Shown piece after piece: positions 32,990-42,067 of a DNA stretch of 64,000 bases. Position numbers and translations under genes: made by a program. The notes beneath the pieces were generated by a model. It was given only the letters and a program-made list of their open reading frames with translations, did not search any database and had not been told where the DNA came from. The DNA is taken from contig JBDRFP010000002.1 in NCBI GenBank assembly GCA_043818555.1, forward strand, positions 16,774 through 80,773, read 5' to 3'. Source of the DNA: a bacterium. GTDB taxonomy: Bacteria > Patescibacteriota > Patescibacteriia > UBA9934. Every line of letters starts with the position of its first letter. The stretch's first letter is position 1.

Positions 32990-33045
32990 AAAATAACATG
33001 GTTTATTATCGCAAAGCAGGGTTTATTGACTGTCGACATGGTTTA
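32990..33045. repeat. Three phased GGTTTATT units (about 21-bp period) upstream of the anti-sigma-like gene
   Basis: tggtttattatcgc / gggtttattgactg / tggtttatttttcg. Confidence 0.55.
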
Positions 33046-33694
33046 TTTTTCGTGTAGCCTGATTAAAATCCCAGCTAGTCACCTTAACCTCTGCGCTCTT
33101 CGCCATAACCTCTCCGCCATCTGCTAAAACCTCTTCGTTTCTCGCCTTAACCTCTGCGTCCTCAGCGATAACCTCCTTGTTGATTGTTAATGAATTATTC
33201 TGATTTTCGAAAATCGTTTTTAAATTTTTCATTGCTCTATGGGCATCGATCCGAGCAGCCCCGGCAGTCTTGCCGAGTAACTCACCAATTTCTTTATATC
33301 GATAACCGAGCAAATACTTTAGCTCAATTATGTGTTTTTCTTTATCGTCAAGCTCGCACAAAGCAATATTTAGTCGATACTTGTCGTCGGCCTTGATTAA
33401 ATCATCACGGCCATCAGTGCCCTCAATCTTGAACGCGATTTGATCAATGTCGATTACATCCTTTCGATCCCTCCAATGGTTGATTACATGATTGCGGGCA
33501 ATGGTCATAATCCAGGCGTTCTGAGACTGCGCCGGATCATACACCGCAAAACTCCGTAGAGCCTTTATGAAAATCTCGCTCGTAAGATCTTCTGCCACTT
33601 CCCTGTTCATGTTTACACGATAGAACACAAATCGATACACTCGACTGAAATGTTTATTGTAGAATTTGTTGAAATTTGACTTGGTAAGTTGCAT
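33023..33694 (-). CDS. RNA polymerase sigma factor, ECF / sigma-70 family, with a C-terminal repeat extension
   Basis: Region 2 (EDLTSEIFIKALRSF...AWIMTIARNHVINHWR) and region 4 HTH (ELKYLLGYRYKEIGELLGKTAGAARIDAHRA). C-terminal AEVKARNEEVLADGGEVMAKSAEVKV-type repeats. Confidence 0.8.
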   Translation of the reverse strand: MQLTKSNFNKFYNKHFSRVYRFVFYRVNMNREVAEDLTSEIFIKALRSFAVYDPAQSQNAWIMTIARNHVINHWRDRKDVIDIDQIAFKIEGTDGRDDLIKADDKYRLNIALCELDDKEKHIIELKYLLGYRYKEIGELLGKTAGAARIDAHRAMKNLKTIFENQNNSLTINKEVIAEDAEVKARNEEVLADGGEVMAKSAEVKVTSWDFNQATRKINHVDSQ

Positions 33695-33797: not shown

Positions 33798-33866
33798 GGG
33801 GGTAATCGGATCGCGAAGGGGTTAATCGTAAACAAGAGTTCACAGTTAACAGTTCACAGTTCAGCG
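33798..33866. repeat. GGGGGTAATCGGATCGCGAAGGGGTTAATCG plus GTTCACAGTTAACAGTTCACAGTTCA heptad element, copy 1 (upstream of the ECF sigma gene)
   Basis: Near-identical to the element at 35453..35567. On the gene strand it reads as tandem TGAACTG heptads. Confidence 0.75.
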
Positions 33867-34914: not shown

Positions 34915-35424
34915 TTAAGCGCGGCCGCGGGTTCCGAGGAGTAATGCCACGGGTGCTAAAGGCCAAAGTATTAGCGCAAGATCGCTCGCAAGTACGCCTC
35001 GTACGACCGGAGAAAGTGAACCAATAACATCGGCTGGTAAAAACATAAACACAGCGGTTAAAAACAGCCCAGTAAATACAGTTGCGAAAATAGCAGACTC
35101 CCAACTCGAAGGCACCACAGACGGCTCAGAAAAGCCGTTTTTTGCTACAACGCCGAAAATAATCAAGAACAGCACTACAAACATTCCAATCTCGCCGTAA
35201 TAAGGCTCTGGGCCAATCGCGGGCGCAGCGTCGATCCAAAAACTTGTAATCATCATAGCCGCAATCGCCATGTAAAGCGCATAAATCATGGTCATATTGT
35301 AGTCCTTGCCAAGCGTGTACGCATACACAATAACGAGCGCAAGTACGCCAAGAACAATCAGCAGGTCAGCTGTGAAGATGTCTGTGTTGATTTCGCTAAG
35401 TTGTTCGAGTGTGTCGGTTGGCAT
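34915..35424 (-). CDS. Hypothetical membrane protein (169 aa)
   Basis: 4-5 predicted TM helices. Confidence 0.55.
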   Translation of the reverse strand: MPTDTLEQLSEINTDIFTADLLIVLGVLALVIVYAYTLGKDYNMTMIYALYMAIAAMMITSFWIDAAPAIGPEPYYGEIGMFVVLFLIIFGVVAKNGFSEPSVVPSSWESAIFATVFTGLFLTAVFMFLPADVIGSLSPVVRGVLASDLALILWPLAPVALLLGTRGRA

Positions 35425-35452
35425 GGGGTGATTATACCATATCGGAAAGCGT

Positions 35453-35567
35453 GGGGGTTAATCGGATCGCGAAGGGGTTAACGAGAGTGCCGGGGGGTTA
35501 ACGGTGGGCTGAAGGGGTTAATCGATGCGCAAGAGTTGACAGTTGATGGTTCACAGTTCACGGTTCA
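35453..35567. repeat. GGGGTTAATCG x4 plus GTTGACAGTTGATGGTTCACAGTTCACGGTTCA heptad element, copy 2 (upstream of the 34915..35424 membrane protein gene)
   Basis: Four GGGGTTAA(T)CG units followed by five TGAACYG-type heptads on the gene strand. Confidence 0.75.
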
Positions 35568-35803: not shown

Positions 35804-35876
35804 AACTCACCTCCTTGTTGTACTTTTATGATACCACTGATTGCCGCAGTTGGTAAATCTATACAGGCAAAATACC

Positions 35877-35965
35877 GTCATTGCGAGGAGCCCTGCAACT
35901 CGGCGACGAAGCAATCTACGCGCTAGATCGCTTCGCTAAACGACAAGCAGCCACTCGCGATGACG
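35877..35965. repeat. 89-bp nested-palindrome element, copy A (outer arms GTCATTGCGAG/CTCGCGATGAC, inner arms CGAAGCAATCTA/TAGATCGCTTCG), downstream of dnaJ
   Basis: About 85% identical to the copy at 38360..38448. Candidate structured RNA or complex terminator. Confidence 0.8.
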
Positions 35966-36045
35966 AAAAACTATTTTTCTCGCGTAAATCCAATCCCTCA
36001 ACTAACTTATTCTCCATCTTACTCCGATCGTCCTAAGACGGTAAA

Positions 36046-37098
36046 TTACTTTTCTCGTAGATCCAGTTCTTCGACCAACTTCTTTTCCTTCCGGCCTAAT
36101 CGAGTCGGCGTTACAACTTGAACGATTACAATCTGATCGCCTCGACCGCGGGCGGTTTGGACTCCTTTCCCGCGCAGCTTAAGCTTGTCGCCAGCTTGAG
36201 TCCCGGCTGGAATTTTCAGCTTAACCTTACCATCAACCGTGTCAACCTCAACTTCATCGCCCAAAGCCGCCTGAGTAAAACCGATCTTTTTATCAACATA
36301 AATATTGTTGCCTTCGCGACGAAAACGCGGGTCAACATCAACATGCACGCGCAAGTACAAATCACCCGCATTGCCACTCGCCCCAATCGCCTCGCCCTGC
36401 CCGCGCACGCGAATCTGCATTCCGTTCTCAATCCCGGCCGGAATTTCAACTCGAATGGTGCTACGGCCGTATTCCAGGCCGATTCCGTGGCAAGTTGAGC
36501 ATTTGGTCTCCGGGTCCTCTCCTCGGCCCTGACAGGCCGTGCAGGCAGTCTGGCGCTGCATTGTGCCAAACATAGTACGCTGCACCACTGTTTCCATTCC
36601 ACTGCCTTTGCACGCGTCGCAAGTCTTCATGTTTGTGCCAGGTTCAGCTCCAACACCTCCACAGCGCTCGCAATCGCTATTCTTCGATACTTGAAGTTCC
36701 TTTTCGACTCCAAAAACCGATTCTTTAAAACTCAACTTAACATCGACTGCAATGTCAGCCCCTCGCGCCCTGCGAGATCGACCGCCGCCACCCCCAAACC
36801 CTCCTCCGAAAATATCACCAAAAATATCTCCCAAGTCTTCAAAATTAACACCTTGGCCGCTAAAACCTCCTCCAGGAAAACCTCCAGCACCATCAAAAGT
36901 AGTACCAAACTGGTCGTACTGCGCGCGCTTTTCATCGTCATGCAAAATATGATACGCCTCGTTAATCTCTTTAAACTTGGCTTCATCCCCGCCCTTGTCC
37001 GGATGATGCTCATGCGCAAGGCGCCTAAAAGCCCGCTTAACTTCATCCTTCGAAGCGGTTTTATCGACCCCCAATGTTGCGTAGTAATCTTTGGACAT
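36046..37098 (-). CDS. dnaJ: Chaperone protein DnaJ
   Basis: J domain with HPD, G/F-rich region, four CxxCxGxG zinc-finger repeats, C-terminal domain. 350 aa. Confidence 0.92.
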   Translation of the reverse strand: MSKDYYATLGVDKTASKDEVKRAFRRLAHEHHPDKGGDEAKFKEINEAYHILHDDEKRAQYDQFGTTFDGAGGFPGGGFSGQGVNFEDLGDIFGDIFGGGFGGGGGRSRRARGADIAVDVKLSFKESVFGVEKELQVSKNSDCERCGGVGAEPGTNMKTCDACKGSGMETVVQRTMFGTMQRQTACTACQGRGEDPETKCSTCHGIGLEYGRSTIRVEIPAGIENGMQIRVRGQGEAIGASGNAGDLYLRVHVDVDPRFRREGNNIYVDKKIGFTQAALGDEVEVDTVDGKVKLKIPAGTQAGDKLKLRGKGVQTARGRGDQIVIVQVVTPTRLGRKEKKLVEELDLREK

Positions 37099-37109
37099 GT
37101 TTTTATTTT

Positions 37110-37129
37110 CCCCCCCTTTTTAAGGGGGG
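37110..37129. terminator. G/C hairpin CCCCCCC-TTTTTAA-GGGGGG between the DUF559 gene and dnaJ
   Basis: Perfect 6-7-bp G/C stem. A similar hairpin lies on the other side of the DUF559 gene. Confidence 0.5.
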
Positions 37130-37140
37130 ATTAAGGGGGG

Positions 37141-37512
37141 TTACTCGCTTAATCGCTTTAAAGCAACCTTTATTTGATCAATAACCCCCTCGATACTCTC
37201 GTAAACATCAATGTTTGTAAATCTGATTGTCGTAATCGCATTATCTGACATTAAGTAACCTCTTTGCTTGTCATGGTCGCGACCCAGATCGTCGAAATGG
37301 CTATCTCCATCAATCTCAACAACAAGCTTAACCTTCGCACAGTAGAAATCAACAACATAGGGCCCAATCCCCTGCTGTCTACGAAACTTGAACCCGTCGA
37401 CCTGTGAACCGCGTAAATATTGCCACAGTCTCTGCTCTGCAGGCGTCATTTTTCGCCGTAGCTTTCTACGAAAATCAATGCTACTCGTCCAGTTGTACAG
37501 CTTTCGATCCAT
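37141..37512 (-). CDS. DUF559 (Vsr-endonuclease-like) domain protein
   Basis: 123 aa. YVVDFYC...LVVEIDGDSHF motif is typical of DUF559. Bracketed by G/C hairpins inside the dnaK-dnaJ region. Confidence 0.65.
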   Translation of the reverse strand: MDRKLYNWTSSIDFRRKLRRKMTPAEQRLWQYLRGSQVDGFKFRRQQGIGPYVVDFYCAKVKLVVEIDGDSHFDDLGRDHDKQRGYLMSDNAITTIRFTNIDVYESIEGVIDQIKVALKRLSE

Positions 37513-37527
37513 AGTAACCACCCCCTA

Positions 37528-37548
37528 CCCCTCCTTAAAAAGGAGGGG
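37528..37548. repeat. G/C hairpin CCCCTCCT-TAAAA-AGGAGGGG upstream of the DUF559 gene
   Basis: Perfect 8-bp stem. Partner of the 37110 hairpin. Confidence 0.5.
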
Positions 37549-37556
37549 GGTCGAAA

Positions 37557-37745
37557 TTAACTAAACAGCTTTTTCTTGTCCTCCTCCTTCACAACCTTCG
37601 CCTTTGCGTCAACGACCTTTTGCTGGCCCTTGCCAACAGTCTTCTTCCAAATAAAGTTTCGTACAGGTGGAAACGAGAGGATGGTTAGAATTGCACTCCC
37701 AATACCGAGAGCACCCTTCCACATGTAGTGAAGCATTTTTTTCAT
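37557..37745 (-). CDS. Hypothetical small membrane protein (62 aa)
   Basis: ATG 10 nt downstream of the rdgB stop. One hydrophobic helix (GALGIGSAILTILSF). No SD. Confidence 0.35.
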   Translation of the reverse strand: MKKMLHYMWKGALGIGSAILTILSFPPVRNFIWKKTVGKGQQKVVDAKAKVVKEEDKKKLFS

Positions 37746-37755
37746 ATGACAAGCG

Positions 37756-38349
37756 TTAGATTAAACTTTGGTCTTTTAATTTTTGTGCGAGTTTCTTTCC
37801 TGCGCGGACGCGGTGAGAAAGCTCGGATTTTTTATCGTATCGTTCTGCAAGCGTGGCTCCAACATCTTCTGCCCAGAAAATCGTATCAAACGGCAGGCCC
37901 GGCTTGTACTCTGCAGTTCTAGCCTCAGTAATCCGACCATTTAGATGCCCCTCCACTGCAATCTTATTTCCGTCAGGATCTACATACACCATTGCTGTCG
38001 TAAACCTTGCTGTGCGTTTTTCAAGAGGCACTCCTTCAAGCTTTTCAAGGCACAAGTCGATCAACTCCTCGTCTTCAGCCTCGTAACCCGGCCATCTGCG
38101 AACCTTTAGCCCAGGCTCGCCATCCAGCGCGTCGATGAATAACCCAGTATCGTCCCCGATCGTCGGCAGTCCACTAGCCTCCATACCAGCGCGCGCCTTC
38201 TTGAGCGCATTACCCTCAAGCGTTTGCTGATCTTCGTCAACGTCAAGTTCGATACCCCGATCTTTAAGCGTGACCGTATCGATCCCACCGAGAATCTTCG
38301 AAATCTCCTCGGCTTTACCTTGATTGTTAGTGCAGACTAGAATTGGCAT
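37756..38349 (-). CDS. rdgB: dITP/XTP pyrophosphatase (Ham1/RdgB family)
   Basis: N-terminus MPILVCTNNQGK (compare ATGNPGK) and C-terminal FDTIFWAEDVGATLAE...KSELSHRVRA (RdgB SHR motif). Start set to the internal Met. Confidence 0.8.
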   Translation of the reverse strand: MPILVCTNNQGKAEEISKILGGIDTVTLKDRGIELDVDEDQQTLEGNALKKARAGMEASGLPTIGDDTGLFIDALDGEPGLKVRRWPGYEAEDEELIDLCLEKLEGVPLEKRTARFTTAMVYVDPDGNKIAVEGHLNGRITEARTAEYKPGLPFDTIFWAEDVGATLAERYDKKSELSHRVRAGKKLAQKLKDQSLI

Positions 38350-38359
38350 ACATGCATCT

Positions 38360-38448
38360 GTCATTGCGAGGAGCTCAGAAACTCGGCGACGAAGCAATCT
38401 AACGAGTAGATTGCTTCGCTAAACGACAAACGACCACTCGCAATGACG
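38360..38448. repeat. 89-bp nested-palindrome element, copy B, directly downstream of dnaK
   Basis: GTCATTGCGAGGAGCTCAGAAACTCGGCGACGAAGCAATCTAACGAGTAGATTGCTTCGCTAAACGACAAACGACCACTCGCAATGACG. Confidence 0.8.
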
Positions 38449-38456
38449 AATTAAAT

Positions 38457-40373
38457 TTATTTTTCGCTTTCCGATCCTTGATCATCAACATCCTTAAACT
38501 CAGCGTCTTTTACTTCAGGCTCGGCGTCGGCAGGTTGATCCCCAGTTTCTGACGCTTGAGCCCCAGTTGCCTGCTCTTGCTGGTACATTTTTGCCCCAAT
38601 CTTCTGAGCCTCTGTGGATAACTCATCAGACGCCTTTTTAATAGCATCGATATCGTCTCCGTCTTTAACAGCCTTCAAAGCATCGATCTTTTCGCCAATT
38701 ACTTTCTTTTCATCGTCAGCGATCTTTTCGCCATACTCACTCATCATTTTCTCAGTTGTGTAGACCATTGTATCAGCCACATTCCTAACTTCAATCTGCT
38801 CCTTTTTCTTTTTATCATCCTCAGCGTGAGTTTCCGCGTCAGCCTTCATCTTTTCGATCTCCTCGTCGCTAAGCCCTGACGAAGCTGTGATTGTAATCTT
38901 CTGCTCACGACCGGTCGCCTTGTCCGCAGCCTTTACGTTTAAGATTCCATTAGCGTCAATATCAAACGAAACTTCAACCTGCGGGATTCCTCGCGGCGCC
39001 GGTGGAATGCCGTCCAGCATAAACTGCCCGAGCAGTTTGTTGTCGACCGCCATCTGACGCTCGCCCTGGTAAACTTTAACATCTACCGAAGGTTGGTTGT
39101 CAGCAGCGGTTGAGAAAATTTGACTCTTGCTTGTTGGAATAGTGCTGTTTCGATCGATCAGCTTGGTGAACACACCGCCGAGCGTCTCAATGCCAAACGA
39201 CAACGGCGTAACATCGAGAAGTAAAATATCTTTCACATCGCCCTGCAAAACTCCAGCCTGAACAGCCGCGCCAAGCGCCACCACTTCGTCCGGGTTCACA
39301 CTAATGTTTGGTTTCTTGCCAAAGAACTCCTCAACTCGCTTTTGCACAATTGGCATGCGAGTCATCCCGCCGACCAGAACGATCTCTTCGATCGCGCTAG
39401 CGTCCAACTTGGCATCAGCCAAAGCCCTTTTAACTGGCTCTAGGGTTTTATCTACAAGTGGCGACACCAGCTCTTCAAGCTTTGAGCGCGTTAGTTTCAT
39501 AACAAGGTGCTTTGGACCTTCAGCGCCCTGAGTAATAAATGGCTGATTAATCTCGGTTTCTTGAGCTGTGGATAACTCGATTTTAGCTCGCTCAGCAGCA
39601 TCTTTCACGCGCTGCATGGCCAAAGAGTCGCCTGCCAAATCAACACCCTCCTGAGTCTTGAACTCTTGAATTATCCAGTCAATTATCACCTTGTCAAAGT
39701 CGTCACCGCCCAAATGAGTGTCGCCGTTGGTTGAAATAACCTCAACAGTTGAATCGGAAACATCGAGCACTGACACATCAAAAGTTCCGCCTCCTAGATC
39801 GTACACAAGAATCTGCTGGCCAACTTTTTTATCAAATCCGTATGCCAGCGCAGCCGCGGTCGGCTCGTTGATTATACGCGATACTTTCAAACCGGCAATC
39901 TCACCAGCGTCCTTAGTAGCCTGGCGCTGTGAGTCATCAAAGTAAGCCGGCACAGTAATCACCGCCTCAGTTACAGGCTCGCCAAGACGCTCTTCGGCAT
40001 CGGCCTTCATCTTTTGGAGAATCATTGCGCTCACTTCCTGCGGCGTATGCTCCTTATCTCCAATCTTCACTGCCACACCTTCGCCACGAGCAACAATTTC
40101 AAACGGCATCACTTTAACATCGTTTTGAATCTCATCGTCGGAAAACCTGCGTCCAATCAGGCGCTTAATCGAGTAAAGTGTGTTATTTGGATTTGTAACT
40201 GCCTGACGCTTTGCCGGCACGCCAACCAGGCGCTCGTTATTCTTTGTGATTGCCACCATTGACGGCGTGGTACGCGCGCCCTCCTTGTTTTCTAAAATTT
40301 TCGGCTGTCCACCCTCCATTACAGCCATTGCGGAATTGGTAGTTCCAAGGTCTATTCCTAGAATTTTTGACAT
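38457..40373 (-). CDS. dnaK: Chaperone protein DnaK (Hsp70)
   Basis: 638 aa. [18 protein letters not shown], Hsp70 signatures throughout. Confidence 0.95.
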
Positions 40374-40490: not shown

Positions 40491-41030
40491 CTATCCTGAC
40501 CCTTGATCTTCTGTGACCTGATTCACAATTACCATAGCTGGTCGCAAAACCCCCTTTCCAAGCGTCCAGCCTTTTTGCACAACTTCCAAAATCGCCCCAT
40601 CAGCAGCATCTTTTTCATTCCTCATACCAACCGCTTCATGCAAATTCGGATCAAATTTCCCTGTACTACTAATCTCATGCACTCTATGAAGTTCGAAAAC
40701 ATGTTCAAGTTGACTATGTGCACAAGCGACCCCCTTTAGCCAATTTTCGATCTCAGCTCGCTTGGCTTTGTCGAGCGCTGATAAATCCGGCTGATGACAC
40801 TCTGTCTGTTCCAAGGCATCCATTGCATTAAGTAGTTCAAGAAAAATATCAGATTCGTAACGATACAAAGATTTAAACACCCGGCTTTCAGTATCGCGCT
40901 TTAGGTTCTCATAGTCAGCCAACGCGCGCTTCCAGCCATCCAGATACTCTGCACACTTGGCCTCGAGTTCCTGATCGACTTCTACGCTTTCTATGTCTTC
41001 TACGTTTTTTACATCTTTCTTCTTACTCAT
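40491..41030 (-). CDS. grpE: Nucleotide exchange factor GrpE
   Basis: 179 aa. C-terminal GWTLGKGVLRPAMVIV is the GrpE signature. Overlaps the hrcA stop by 4 nt. Confidence 0.85.
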   Translation of the reverse strand: MSKKKDVKNVEDIESVEVDQELEAKCAEYLDGWKRALADYENLKRDTESRVFKSLYRYESDIFLELLNAMDALEQTECHQPDLSALDKAKRAEIENWLKGVACAHSQLEHVFELHRVHEISSTGKFDPNLHEAVGMRNEKDAADGAILEVVQKGWTLGKGVLRPAMVIVNQVTEDQGSG

Positions 41031-41728
41031 AATTCTTCATCTAATAACTTCTTAGCTTCGCGTAGCAACTTCATGTTTCTCCCATAATCCATACGAAGCG
41101 GGCCAACTAAGCCCATAATTCCTGTAAATCCTCCAGGCATTTTATATTTTACAAGCATCGTTGTCATTTGACTGCCAAACGGACTTTGCTCGCCGATCCA
41201 GACGCTAACATCTCTATCGACACGCTCAAAAACATCATTTAAAACATCGTCAAACTTGTCGATAATGCCAGAGAGCTCGCGCAAAGTGTCCACATTGCCA
41301 AACTCGGGCTTATCGAAAAGATTTGATATTCCAGTGTAATAATTTTGATTAGAGTCCATTGATGAAAACGCGGTTTCGCCTGAAAGCTCAACAAGACATT
41401 TGGCGATTTTGCGAACAATGTCGCGCGGGTCACCAACGTGCTGGCGAGCTTCTACGAGTGGAGCGCGCGGCCGCATCGATCCGGCTGGCTGCATAAACTG
41501 CTCAACATAAAGTCGAAAGCCTTCCTCGGTTGGCACGCGCCCGGCAGAAGTGTGCGGTTGGCGGAGCAGTCCGAAATCCTCGAGCGCAACCATTGTATTT
41601 CGTACCGTAGCCGATGAACACCCAAGGCTAAACTTGTTAACTAAAATTTGCGAAGCAACCGGCTGTGCTGTTTTTACATAATGCTCAATTATGGCTGAAA
41701 GTATTTGTGACTGTCTGTCGGAAAGCAT
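41027..41728 (-). CDS. hrcA: Heat-inducible transcription repressor HrcA
   Basis: N-terminal wHTH (LSDRQSQILSAIIEHYVKTAQPVASQIL). CIRCE operator upstream. Start set to the internal Met. Confidence 0.85.
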   Translation of the reverse strand: MLSDRQSQILSAIIEHYVKTAQPVASQILVNKFSLGCSSATVRNTMVALEDFGLLRQPHTSAGRVPTEEGFRLYVEQFMQPAGSMRPRAPLVEARQHVGDPRDIVRKIAKCLVELSGETAFSSMDSNQNYYTGISNLFDKPEFGNVDTLRELSGIIDKFDDVLNDVFERVDRDVSVWIGEQSPFGSQMTTMLVKYKMPGGFTGIMGLVGPLRMDYGRNMKLLREAKKLLDEEL

Positions 41729-41739
41729 AAGACAAATTT

Positions 41740-41850
41740 CCAATTCACAAGCACCCAATCCCCAATGAATTCCCAATGTCCAATCTCCAATTGGTCATTG
41801 GTAATTGGATATTCATTGTATATTGGCTAGTTGGTCATTGGACATTACTC
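41740..41850. repeat. CCAAT-box-rich element copy C (shares CCCAATGAAT(T/C)CCCAAT and CTTGTGAATTGG with the two T4CP-gene leaders), between CIRCE and the hrcA start
   Basis: caattcacaagcacccaatccccaatgaattcccaatgtccaatctccaattggtcattggtaattgg. Confidence 0.7.
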
Positions 41851-41855
41851 GATCG

Positions 41856-41882
41856 TTAGCAGTCAGTATTATAGACTGCTAA
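41856..41882. promoter_or_regulatory. CIRCE-like operator (TTAGCAGTC-N9-GACTGCTAA) upstream of hrcA-grpE-dnaK
   Basis: 9-bp inverted repeat with a 9-nt spacer, one-position variant of the consensus TTAGCACTC-N9-GAGTGCTAA. Confidence 0.8.
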
Positions 41883-42067
41883 GTTTGAACCGTCAAGTTT
41901 TTAGACCTACAGACTACAGATTTTTTTGGATTTACAGATCGAAAAACTCGTACTTCATTCTGTATATCTGTAAGCAATCAGTAGTCTGTAGGAAATAAAA
42001 AATCCCCTCAGCAATAAGCTTCGGGGACCAGACACTCTTCGTCAAGACTCCTAGAAAGAGGGATGCC

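What the first reader, a model, noticed from the sequence alone, without database searches (positions are those of the whole stretch)
35877..38448. Two copies of an 89-bp nested palindrome placed exactly after dnaK and after dnaJ
Elements at 35877-35965 and 38360-38448 are about 85% identical. They share outer arms GTCATTGCGAG/CTCGCRATGAC (11 bp) and inner arms CGAAGCAATCTA/TAGATYGCTTCG (12 bp). Each starts within about 10-80 nt of the stop codon of a chaperone gene. Candidates are a structured 3-prime UTR element (mRNA-stability or heat-responsive RNA structure), a complex terminator, or a MITE.
Basis: seen in the sequence. Interest (0 to 1): 0.55.

Follow-up and report, generated by a model that had tools for sequence, protein, structure and literature searches.

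The report
REP-type palindromic repeats in dnaK operon
The two 89-bp palindromes after dnaK and dnaJ are real, but they are copies of a widespread, insertion-prone family of small hairpin repeats (REP-like, "CGTC/TGTC-tagged") found in many bacteria and phages, not a chaperone-specific regulatory element.

Summary
Two 88-nt palindromes (35877-35964 and 38360-38447) are 86% identical. They lie 81 nt after dnaJ and 9 nt after dnaK, and both genes are on the minus strand.

Each palindrome is a head-to-head pair of a about 40-nt hairpin module: YGTC, AT+NNN, GA, a variable hairpin closed by G..C, GA(A), N'N'N'+AT, C.

The module is very common. Mismatched stem halves gave only 1 and 9 hits. The NNN/N'N'N' triplets were complementary in 495 of 519 cases. 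Inside the window, copy 1 carries a compensatory double change (35929/35959). That change keeps the module hairpin intact but breaks the long palindrome.

Copies occur in CPR bacteria, Omnitrophica, Chloroflexi and true phage contigs. Homologous loci show filled and empty sites.

Related genomes rarely have a copy at these positions: 2 of 46 dnaK 3' ends and 0 of 71 dnaJ 3' ends.

The closest known kind is the CGTC-tagged REP superfamily (Di Nocera 2013). The tag, the AT-first stem, head-to-head dimers and intergenic location all match. The interrupted stem with a variable apical hairpin does not match.

Heat regulation of this operon is canonical: a CIRCE operator lies upstream of hrcA.

A local role as an mRNA hairpin (stabiliser or partial terminator) is inferred, not shown.

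The parts
35876..35965 (.). Copy 1: a head-to-head dimer of two hairpin modules, including the flanking tag bases (cGTC...GACg). It lies 81 nt 3' of the dnaJ stop codon (36046-36048, minus strand).
35877..35916 (+). Module 1A: GTC-ATTGC-GA-G[GA-GCC-CTGCAACTC-GGC-GA]C-GAA-GCAAT-C
   Evidence: fold -10.3 kcal/mol. Its last 19 nt, ACTCGGCGACGAAGCAATC, recur in modules of Omnitrophica, Chloroflexi and other MAGs.
35917..35925 (.). 9-nt spacer between the two modules (TACGCGCTA). Its ends, TA/TA, extend the inner arms.
35926..35964 (-). Module 1B, read on the minus strand, which is the mRNA strand: GTC-ATCGC-GAG...CGAA-GCGAT-C. Its basal stem carries a compensatory double change (35959 and 35929) relative to ATTGC/GCAAT.
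38359..38448 (.). Copy 2: a head-to-head dimer including tag bases (tGTC...GACg). It lies 9 nt 3' of the dnaK stop codon (38457-38459, minus strand) and 10 nt 5' of the Ham1/ITPase start codon (38349).
38360..38399 (+). Module 2A: GTC-ATTGC-GA-G[GA-GCT-CAGAAACTC-GGC-GA]C-GAA-GCAAT-C
38400..38408 (.). 9-nt spacer (TAACGAGTA)
38409..38447 (-). Module 2B, on the minus (mRNA) strand: GTC-ATTGC-GAG-TGGTCGTTTGTCGTTTAG-CGAA-GCAAT-C

Best explanation
Each element is a head-to-head (tags outside) dimer of a short REP-type hairpin module. The module is an unpaired YGTC tag, a 5-bp basal stem (A-T, T-A, then three covarying pairs), a purine internal loop GA/GA(A), a G-C pair, a variable apical hairpin, and a 3' C. 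The modules belong to a very large, cross-phylum family of intergenic interspersed repeats that are inserted and lost as units. The family is a variant of the CGTC/TGTC-tagged REP superfamily, whose mobilising enzyme is unknown. By analogy with REP/RAYT and IS200/IS605, the hairpin is probably recognised as single-stranded DNA; this step is inferred. The two window copies are each other's closest relatives and share no flanks. I therefore read them as a recent local copy event into two spacers of the hrcA-grpE-dnaK-...-dnaJ operon. Once transcribed, each folds into a hairpin of about -40 kcal/mol. It probably acts as a 3'-to-5' exonuclease barrier or partial terminator, protecting the dnaK and dnaJ segments and uncoupling them from downstream genes. 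That is a secondary, co-opted or neutral effect, inferred from E. coli REP biology and not shown here.
For: Shown:
- The repeat and its fold are real.
- The module is the unit. In 291 loci there are 298 single modules, 80 head-to-head, 34 head-to-tail and 8 tail-to-tail dimers, and 41 of the 80 head-to-head dimers combine different basal stems.
- The basal stem covaries. The contingency table is diagonal for the triplets TGC, TCT, CCT, TCC, CCC, TTT and CGC, with 495 complementary and 24 not. Scans with mismatched halves gave 1 and 9.
- The apical part is a hairpin of free sequence and length. It is more stable than its own shuffles in 121 of 276 cases, Wilcoxon p = 1e-19.
- Within the window, the 35929/35959 double change keeps module 1B paired and damages the long palindrome.
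- The tag base before GTC is T in 70% and C in 26% of modules.
- Modules are depleted in ORFs: 37% inside crude ORF calls versus 82% coding fraction. Most lie between co-directional genes, in both orientations (69 sense, 43 antisense).
- Homologous loci show filled and empty sites. The dnaK-small ORF spacer is 16-30 nt and element-free in L123 and L126.
- Hosts include CPR (window, L121, L123), Omnitrophica (at least 9 copies on 6 contigs), Chloroflexi and true phage contigs.
- Real CGTC REPs from Sulfurovum and Shinella share CGTC-ATTCT.. and CGTC-ATCCC.. with ..AT-CCA.
Against: - Only two copies occur in 64 kb, and both are in one operon. The source genome could not be retrieved, so its genome-wide copy number is unknown.
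- The same arrangement, an element after dnaK and another after dnaJ, recurs in a distant MAG (L158, DnaJ 52% identical). An element after dnaK also occurs in L121, L303 and L323. This hints at a preferred niche. The enrichment test was marginal to null, and the L158 element lies in the opposite orientation relative to the gene.
- No mobilising enzyme was found.
- No target-site duplication was seen.
- Any effect at the RNA level is untested.
Confidence: 0.78

Rival explanations
1. The element is a dedicated structured 3' UTR RNA of chaperone genes. It would confer mRNA stability or respond to heat, and would be selected specifically at dnaK and dnaJ.
For: The structure is stable. Copies lie directly 3' of dnaK and dnaJ in the window. 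They lie in the same places in the distant MAG E14_metabat.bin.105 (L158). They also lie 3' of dnaK in L121, L303 and L323.
Against: Only 2 of 46 dnaK 3' ends and 0 of 71 dnaJ 3' ends carry a module in a sample of related loci. The density after dnaK is no higher than expected for intergenic DNA. The same module lies next to gyrB, scpB, phage structural genes and many others. The orientation relative to the gene differs between the window and L158. The covarying unit is the half-module, not the long hairpin. The operon already has a CIRCE/HrcA operator.
Confidence: 0.06
2. The elements act mainly as intrinsic transcription terminators or attenuators of the operon.
For: On the mRNA strand, copy 1 is followed by GGUAUUUUG. 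A promoter-like site (35857-35828) and a ribosome-binding site for the next gene follow it, so it lies at a plausible operon end.
Against: Copy 2 has no U-tract, and the next start codon is 10 nt away. The terminator scan calls neither copy. Most family members lack U-tracts and occur in both orientations and upstream of start codons.
Confidence: 0.12
3. The element is a classical MITE: a deletion derivative of an insertion sequence, moved by a DDE transposase through its terminal inverted repeats.
For: It has 11-bp terminal inverted arms, is small, is intergenic, and is polymorphic for presence or absence.
Against: The 'terminal repeats' are parts of autonomous single modules, which outnumber dimers (298 versus 80). 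Half of the dimers have non-matching arms. No target-site duplication flanks either window copy. No IS or transposase has matching ends among ORFs flanked by inverted modules.
Confidence: 0.04
4. The two direct copies are recombination sites (attC-like or Xer-like) bounding a mobile gene cassette: Ham1, the 62-aa ORF, DUF559 and dnaJ.
For: Direct repeats flank a 2.4-kb block. Part of its content (Ham1, DUF559) is absent in relatives. In some phage contigs, modules separate successive genes in one orientation.
Against: dnaJ and the small ORF inside the block are ancestral and syntenic. There are no integron core sites (GTTRRRY). No integrase lies nearby. The DUF559 gene has its own separate inverted repeats.
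Confidence: 0.03

Closest known systems
CGTC-tagged REPs (families CGTC-1 to CGTC-4; Di Nocera, De Gregorio & Rocco 2013, BMC Genomics 14:522, PMC3733652). These include Neisseria dRS3 and Rickettsia RPE-4/RPE-6.
   Same: Both have an unpaired 5' tag, CGTC or TGTC. Both have a stem that starts with A-T, T-A. Both have a 3' C or CCA-like tail. Both are mostly head-to-head dimers with spacers of 2-100 nt, often heterodimers. Both are intergenic, typically just 3' of an ORF. Both are spread over several phyla, and neither has a flanking transposase. Real CGTC REPs in Sulfurovum (CGTC-ATTCTCGGG-CTTGA-CCCGGGAAT-CCA) and Shinella (CGTC-ATCCCCGGG-CTTGA-CCCGGGGAT-CCA) share the tag and the first five stem pairs with the TCT and CCC variants found here.
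   Different: The described families have an uninterrupted 8-9 bp stem and a 4-5 nt loop. Here the stem is 5 bp, followed by a conserved GA/GA(A) internal loop, a G-C pair and an apical hairpin of free sequence and length (3 to more than 60 nt). The hosts found here (Patescibacteria/CPR, Omnitrophica, Chloroflexi, environmental phages) are not among the five phyla listed for CGTC repeats. The paper's Figure 2 consensus was not readable, so identity with one of the four families cannot be fully excluded.
GTAG REPs / REPINs mobilised by RAYT (REP-associated tyrosine transposases)
   Same: Both are short tagged hairpins. Inverted doublets are the common unit. Both have an extragenic location, and a single-stranded hairpin is the likely substrate.
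   Different: The tag is YGTC, not GTAG. No RAYT or Y1 transposase was seen next to any module. Sequence conservation across phyla is far higher than for lineage-specific GTAG REPs.
E. coli REP/BIME as mRNA stabilisers and translation modulators (my own knowledge: the malE-malF REP; REPs within 15 nt of a stop codon)
   Same: Both are stable hairpins inside a polycistronic operon directly after a highly expressed gene. Copy 2 starts 9 nt after the dnaK stop codon.
   Different: There is no experimental evidence here. The organism is an uncultured CPR bacterium.

Membership tests
CGTC-tagged REP superfamily | Unpaired terminal tag CGTC (variants TGTC, CCTC) | tested here: met
   The window's four modules have tags CGTC, CGTC, TGTC and CGTC. 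Across 542 modules the base before GTC is T in 70%, C in 26% and A or G in 3%.
CGTC-tagged REP superfamily | Stem begins with complementary A-T and T-A pairs | tested here: met
   GTCAT...ATC is invariant in alignments A1 and A2.
CGTC-tagged REP superfamily | Uninterrupted stem of 8-9 bp and loop of 4-5 nt (families 1-4) | tested here: not met
   The module has a 5-bp basal stem, a GA/GA(A) internal loop, a G-C pair and a variable apical hairpin of 3 to more than 60 nt.
CGTC-tagged REP superfamily | Short unpaired 3' tail, consensus CCA | tested here: inconclusive
   A C always follows the stem. The next two bases are TC in 42%, CC in 12% and CA in 11%. The window copies have C-TA.
CGTC-tagged REP superfamily | Predominantly head-to-head dimers (tags outside); tail-to-tail rare | tested here: met
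   There are 80 head-to-head versus 8 tail-to-tail dimers (34 head-to-tail, 298 single). Both window copies are head-to-head.
CGTC-tagged REP superfamily | Intergenic, mainly between co-directional or convergent ORFs and close to the upstream stop codon | tested here: met
   37% of modules fall inside crude ORF calls versus an 82% coding fraction. The flanking-gene contexts are 112 co-directional, 17 convergent and 24 divergent. In L010 the modules lie 10-20 nt after stop codons. In the window they lie 9 and 81 nt after stop codons.
CGTC-tagged REP superfamily | Many dispersed copies per genome | not testable with these tools
   The source genome could not be retrieved, and only 2 copies occur in 64 kb. 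The feature is met in other hosts: at least 9 copies on 6 contigs of one Omnitrophica MAG and 11 copies in a 10.4-kb phage contig.
REPIN/RAYT system | GTAG tag, and a RAYT gene flanked by the repeats | tested here: not met
   The tag is YGTC. ORFs flanked by inverted modules are phage or housekeeping proteins, and none has a Y1 transposase domain. A genome-wide search for RAYT was not possible.
Classical MITE | Terminal inverted repeats plus a target-site duplication, and a related autonomous IS | tested here: not met
   No duplication flanks either copy. The arms are parts of independent single modules. No parent IS was found.
Intrinsic (Rho-independent) terminator | GC-rich hairpin immediately followed by a U-tract on the transcribed strand | tested here: inconclusive
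   Copy 2 has no U-tract. Copy 1 is followed by GGUAUUUUG. The scan calls neither copy.
Rfam RNA families | A match to any curated covariance model | tested here: not met
   No relevant hit at E <= 10 in the window region or at E <= 1 in five module-rich loci.
CIRCE / HrcA operator | TTAGCACTC-N9-GAGTGCTAA at the promoter | tested here: not met
   The palindromes do not match this pattern. A genuine CIRCE-like site lies elsewhere, at 41856-41882.

The most novel reading that the evidence does not exclude
The GA-loop YGTC modules could be a single, still active, pan-bacterial and phage-borne family of mobile hairpins. An as-yet unidentified enzyme that recognises single-stranded hairpins would copy them, and phages would shuttle them between phyla, including CPR bacteria. 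Small phage genomes carrying about one module per kb (L075, L010) would then be the place to find the long-missing mobilisation machinery of the CGTC-type REPs. A weaker form of this reading is that such modules are preferentially retained in the dnaK-dnaJ spacer as expression-tuning hairpins.
Probability: 0.15. Interest if true: 0.65.

Novelty: new variant of a known kind. Interest (0 to 1): 0.35.

Why it matters
For this window the result is mostly deflationary. The palindromes are interspersed repeats, not a new heat-shock RNA.

The family behind them is of moderate interest. It is an apparently undescribed structural variant of the CGTC-tagged REPs: a conserved tandem-GA internal loop with a free apical hairpin. 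Its core is nearly identical in CPR bacteria, Omnitrophica, Chloroflexi and environmental phages. How CGTC-type REPs spread has been open since 2013, and module-dense phage genomes could make that question testable.

There is also a practical point. These modules create spurious ORFs and false N-terminal extensions in MAG annotation. Examples are the 213-aa TTG ORF 37756-38397 and the dnaJ start in L158.

Tried and rejected
- Rfam searches of the region and of five module-rich loci gave no relevant family.
- Literature searches by sequence (11-13-mers, both strands, three variants) returned only unrelated primers. Searching REP together with Patescibacteria found nothing. There are no follow-up papers on CGTC REPs beyond citations.
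- BLAST of the element against PLSDB plasmids and INPHARED phages gave nothing.
- Exact look-up of the window's DnaK, DnaJ and Ham1 found nothing on record, although an identical DnaJ (P0001, NCBI MAG, 105.8-kb contig) exists.
- A GTDB scan with the window-specific 19-mer did not contain the source genome. About 30 of its 43 hits are chance coding matches (ELGDEAI in Rhodococcus and Mycobacterium).
- I considered hammerhead, other ribozymes, a k-turn, a CRISPR repeat, attC and a sigma-54 promoter from the sequence. I rejected them because the core motifs do not fit and there are no Rfam hits.
- A REPtron-like test on ORFs flanked by inverted modules found no transposase.
- Covariance model R1, built from short GA-type modules, scores the long window modules poorly (10-15 bits). 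It served only to show that the window has no further strong copy.
- A register-based test of upper-stem pairing was blurred by heterogeneous architectures and was replaced by a comparison of folding energy against shuffles.
- The test for enrichment at dnaK/dnaJ gave small numbers, p = 0.05 to 0.27, and no excess once the intergenic restriction is taken into account.
Full report
**1. Observation**

The two elements exist as described. The repeat finder returns a single family, 35877-35967 and 38360-38450, at 86% identity. The outer arms GTCATTGCGAG / CTCGCRATGAC and inner arms CGAAGCAATCTA / TAGATYGCTTCG are at the stated positions. No shuffle of the window gave as many arm matches. Either strand folds into a long hairpin of -39 to -46 kcal/mol, with z-scores of -4 to -6.

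The genes are all on the minus strand:
- hrcA, 41027-41776
- grpE, 40491-41030
- dnaK, 38457-40373
- a Ham1/ITPase gene, 37756-38349
- a 62-aa ORF, 37557-37745
- a DUF559 gene, 37141-37521
- dnaJ, 36046-37098

Copy 2 therefore begins 9 nt after the dnaK stop codon and ends 10 nt before the next start codon. Copy 1 begins 81 nt after the dnaJ stop codon. No other copy is in the 64 kb, by regex or by an unfiltered covariance-model search.

**2. Anatomy: the unit is a half-element**

In the fetched loci, most occurrences are single half-elements. These are 25-45 nt modules of the form YGTC / AT+NNN / GA / G-[variable hairpin]-C / GA(A) / N'N'N'+AT / C.

The variable part is a hairpin of free sequence and length. 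Examples are CCGAAGG, GCTGACGAAGTCAGC, TCCCGATTTATCGGGA and ACCTGC...GCAGGT. It is more stable than its own shuffles in 121 of 276 modules (Wilcoxon p = 1e-19).

The three variable pairs of the basal stem covary:
- ATTGC/GCAAT, ATTCT/AGAAT, ATCCT/AGGAT, ATTCC/GGAAT, ATCCC/GGGAT and ATCGC/GCGAT all occur.
- In a non-circular tabulation, the first Y-like motif downstream of an X motif was complementary 495 times and not complementary 24 times.
Scans with mismatched halves gave 1 and 9 loci, and most of the 9 span two tandem modules.

Among 542 modules there are 298 singles, 80 head-to-head dimers (tags outside, as in the window), 34 head-to-tail and 8 tail-to-tail. Of the head-to-head dimers, 41 combine different basal stems, so they cannot form the long 'nested' hairpin.

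The window itself carries the same signal. The double change preserves the module hairpin but introduces a mismatch and a wobble into the long palindrome on either strand. The 'nested palindrome' is therefore an inverted pair of hairpin modules.

**3. Distribution and mobility**

Module-bearing contigs range from 35 to 68% G+C. They include genuine phage contigs:
- L075 has portal, terminase and capsid genes and 11 co-oriented modules in 10.4 kb.
- L010 has a capsid gene and 7 modules, each 10-20 nt after a stop codon.

A GTDB scan with the 19-mer that ends the window's module A found true elements in four kinds of genome:
- one Omnitrophica MAG, with at least 9 copies on 6 contigs
- two unclassified MAGs
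- a Chloroflexi MAG
- a proteobacterial MAG

The window's organism is a Patescibacteria/CPR bacterium near Candidatus Uhrbacteria.

Modules are depleted in coding sequence: 37% fall inside crude ORF calls against an 82% coding fraction. Most lie between co-directional genes and occur in both orientations (69 sense, 43 antisense).

Homologous loci show filled and empty sites:
- L002 and L108 versus L022, L070, L001 and L025
- L258 versus L212
- the head-to-head dimer of L064 and L041 versus L104

In the window's own lineage, the ancestral layout is dnaK, a conserved 60-aa ORF, then dnaJ. The spacer after dnaK is 16-30 nt and element-free in L123 and L126. It is filled with two dimers in L121 and with one dimer plus a Ham1 gene in the window.

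The two window copies share private sequence in their unconstrained parts but share no flanks. This points to a copy event of the element alone.

**4. Is it chaperone-specific?**

One result gave me pause. In the distant MAG E14_metabat.bin.105 (L158; DnaJ 52% identical), an element again follows dnaK and another follows dnaJ.

I therefore sampled 80 related dnaJ loci from metagenomes:
- Strict modules lie within 250 nt of 2 of 46 dnaK stop codons and 0 of 71 dnaJ stop codons.
- A spacer-based Fisher test gave p = 0.27 for dnaK 3' and p = 0.046 for the whole dnaK-dnaJ interval, on 1-3 events.
- The density of arm motifs after dnaK (0.29 per kb) is about what intergenic DNA gives in these loci.

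E14 is module-rich, with about one element per 4 kb. Its dnaJ element lies in the opposite orientation relative to the gene. I conclude that the element is not a conserved feature of chaperone genes. A mild preference for, or tolerance in, the dnaK-dnaJ spacer cannot be excluded.

Heat regulation has its own canonical basis. The promoter TTGACG-17-TATAAT is overlapped by the CIRCE-like site TTAGCAGTC-N9-GACTGCTAA upstream of hrcA.

**5. Mechanism**

Shown: the hairpin module is under selection as a folded single strand, and the elements come and go as units.

Inferred: recognition as a single-stranded DNA hairpin by a trans-acting enzyme, by analogy with REP/RAYT and IS200/IS605. No such enzyme was found beside any module.

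Inferred for this locus: in the polycistronic mRNA the dimers form very stable hairpins, one 9 nt after dnaK and one at the operon end. There, copy 1 is followed by GGUAUUUUG and then by a promoter-like site and a ribosome-binding site. By analogy with E. coli REPs (my own knowledge: the malE-malF REP, and REPs within 15 nt of stop codons), this would stabilise the upstream message and attenuate downstream expression. Neither copy is called as an intrinsic terminator.

**6. Comparison with the known**

No Rfam family matches. Sequence-based literature searches found nothing.

The closest described kind is the CGTC-tagged REP superfamily of Di Nocera et al. 2013 (PMC3733652). Its features are:
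- a terminal CGTC or TGTC tag
- a stem starting with AT
- a short tail, consensus CCA
- mostly head-to-head dimers, often heterodimers
- a location just 3' of ORFs
- presence in several phyla
- no dedicated transposase

Real CGTC REPs that I retrieved from Sulfurovum and Shinella replicons share the tag and the first five stem pairs with the variants found here.

The difference lies in the rest of the stem. The described families have an uninterrupted 8-9 bp stem and a 4-5 nt loop. This family has a 5-bp stem, a conserved GA/GA(A) internal loop and a free apical hairpin. The hosts (CPR, Omnitrophica, Chloroflexi, phages) are also new relative to that paper. Its consensus figure was not readable, so this difference rests on the paper's text.

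**7. Verdict**

It is a new variant of a known kind. Interest is modest for the window itself and somewhat higher for the family.

Noticed in passing
window 41856-41896 (minus strand): A sigma-70-like promoter, TTGACG-17-TATAAT (41896-41868), has its -10 region overlapped by a CIRCE-like inverted repeat, TTAGCAGTC-N9-GACTGCTAA (41856-41882). It lies upstream of hrcA, so the operon appears to have canonical HrcA/CIRCE control in a CPR genome.
   Followed up: partly
window 37110-37145 and 37513-37548: Two 36-nt inverted repeats rich in G and C runs, 81% complementary (CCCCCCCTTTTTAAGGGGGGATTAAGGGGGG...), closely flank the DUF559 (Vsr-like endonuclease) gene at 37141-37521. Each arm is itself a hairpin. 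The gene is absent from the dnaK-dnaJ interval of relatives, so this looks like a separate small insertion.
   Followed up: partly
window 37756-38349: A Ham1/ITPase gene lies between dnaK and the conserved small ORF only in this genome. The mechanical 213-aa TTG ORF (37756-38397) runs into the palindrome and would be a spurious N-terminal extension.
   Followed up: partly
window 37557-37745; L121 9657-9908; L123 9227-9412; L126 5735-5908: A conserved ORF of about 60 aa, lysine-rich and probably membrane-associated, with no Pfam match, lies between dnaK and dnaJ throughout this CPR lineage (39-56% identity).
   Followed up: partly
window 33798-33863 and 35441-35560: Two related repeat blocks lie just upstream of the minus-strand ORFs 33023-33694 and 34915-35424. 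Each has GGGGTTAA-N12 units with a 20-nt period, followed by CAAGAGTT(C/G)ACAGTT...TTCACAGTTCA. They may be repeated regulatory regions.
   Followed up: no
window 33079-33175: A 21-nt periodic tandem repeat (4 or more units, 68-82% identical) lies inside the 223-aa minus-strand ORF 33023-33694. This implies a 7-residue peptide repeat.
   Followed up: no
L075 2397-10278; L010 3339-12744: These are true phage contigs (portal, terminase, capsid) with about one module per kb, all co-oriented. In L075 the module is the core of a longer repeat of about 80 nt (ccgt-module-CCCCTCAATGTAAGTACGGAGTAAC...). In L010 every module lies 10-20 nt after a stop codon, antisense to the genes.
   Followed up: partly
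L158 2877-3032 and 4121-4234 (MAG E14_metabat.bin.105): The same layout as in the window recurs in a distant genome: an element after dnaK and another after dnaJ. The longest dnaJ ORF there starts at an ATG inside the element's arm (CGCAATGAC), which is a repeat-derived false start.
   Followed up: yes
L029 2695-2818: Four minimal modules (GTCATTGCGAGCCTGCGAAGCAATC) form a perfect head-to-tail array with a 33-nt period.
   Followed up: no
L002 4340-4395 versus L022, L070, L001 and L025 (alignment A3): In the filled sites, the module is inserted between a Shine-Dalgarno sequence and the start codon of a conserved phage gene. This pushes them about 55 nt apart unless the hairpin folds.
   Followed up: no
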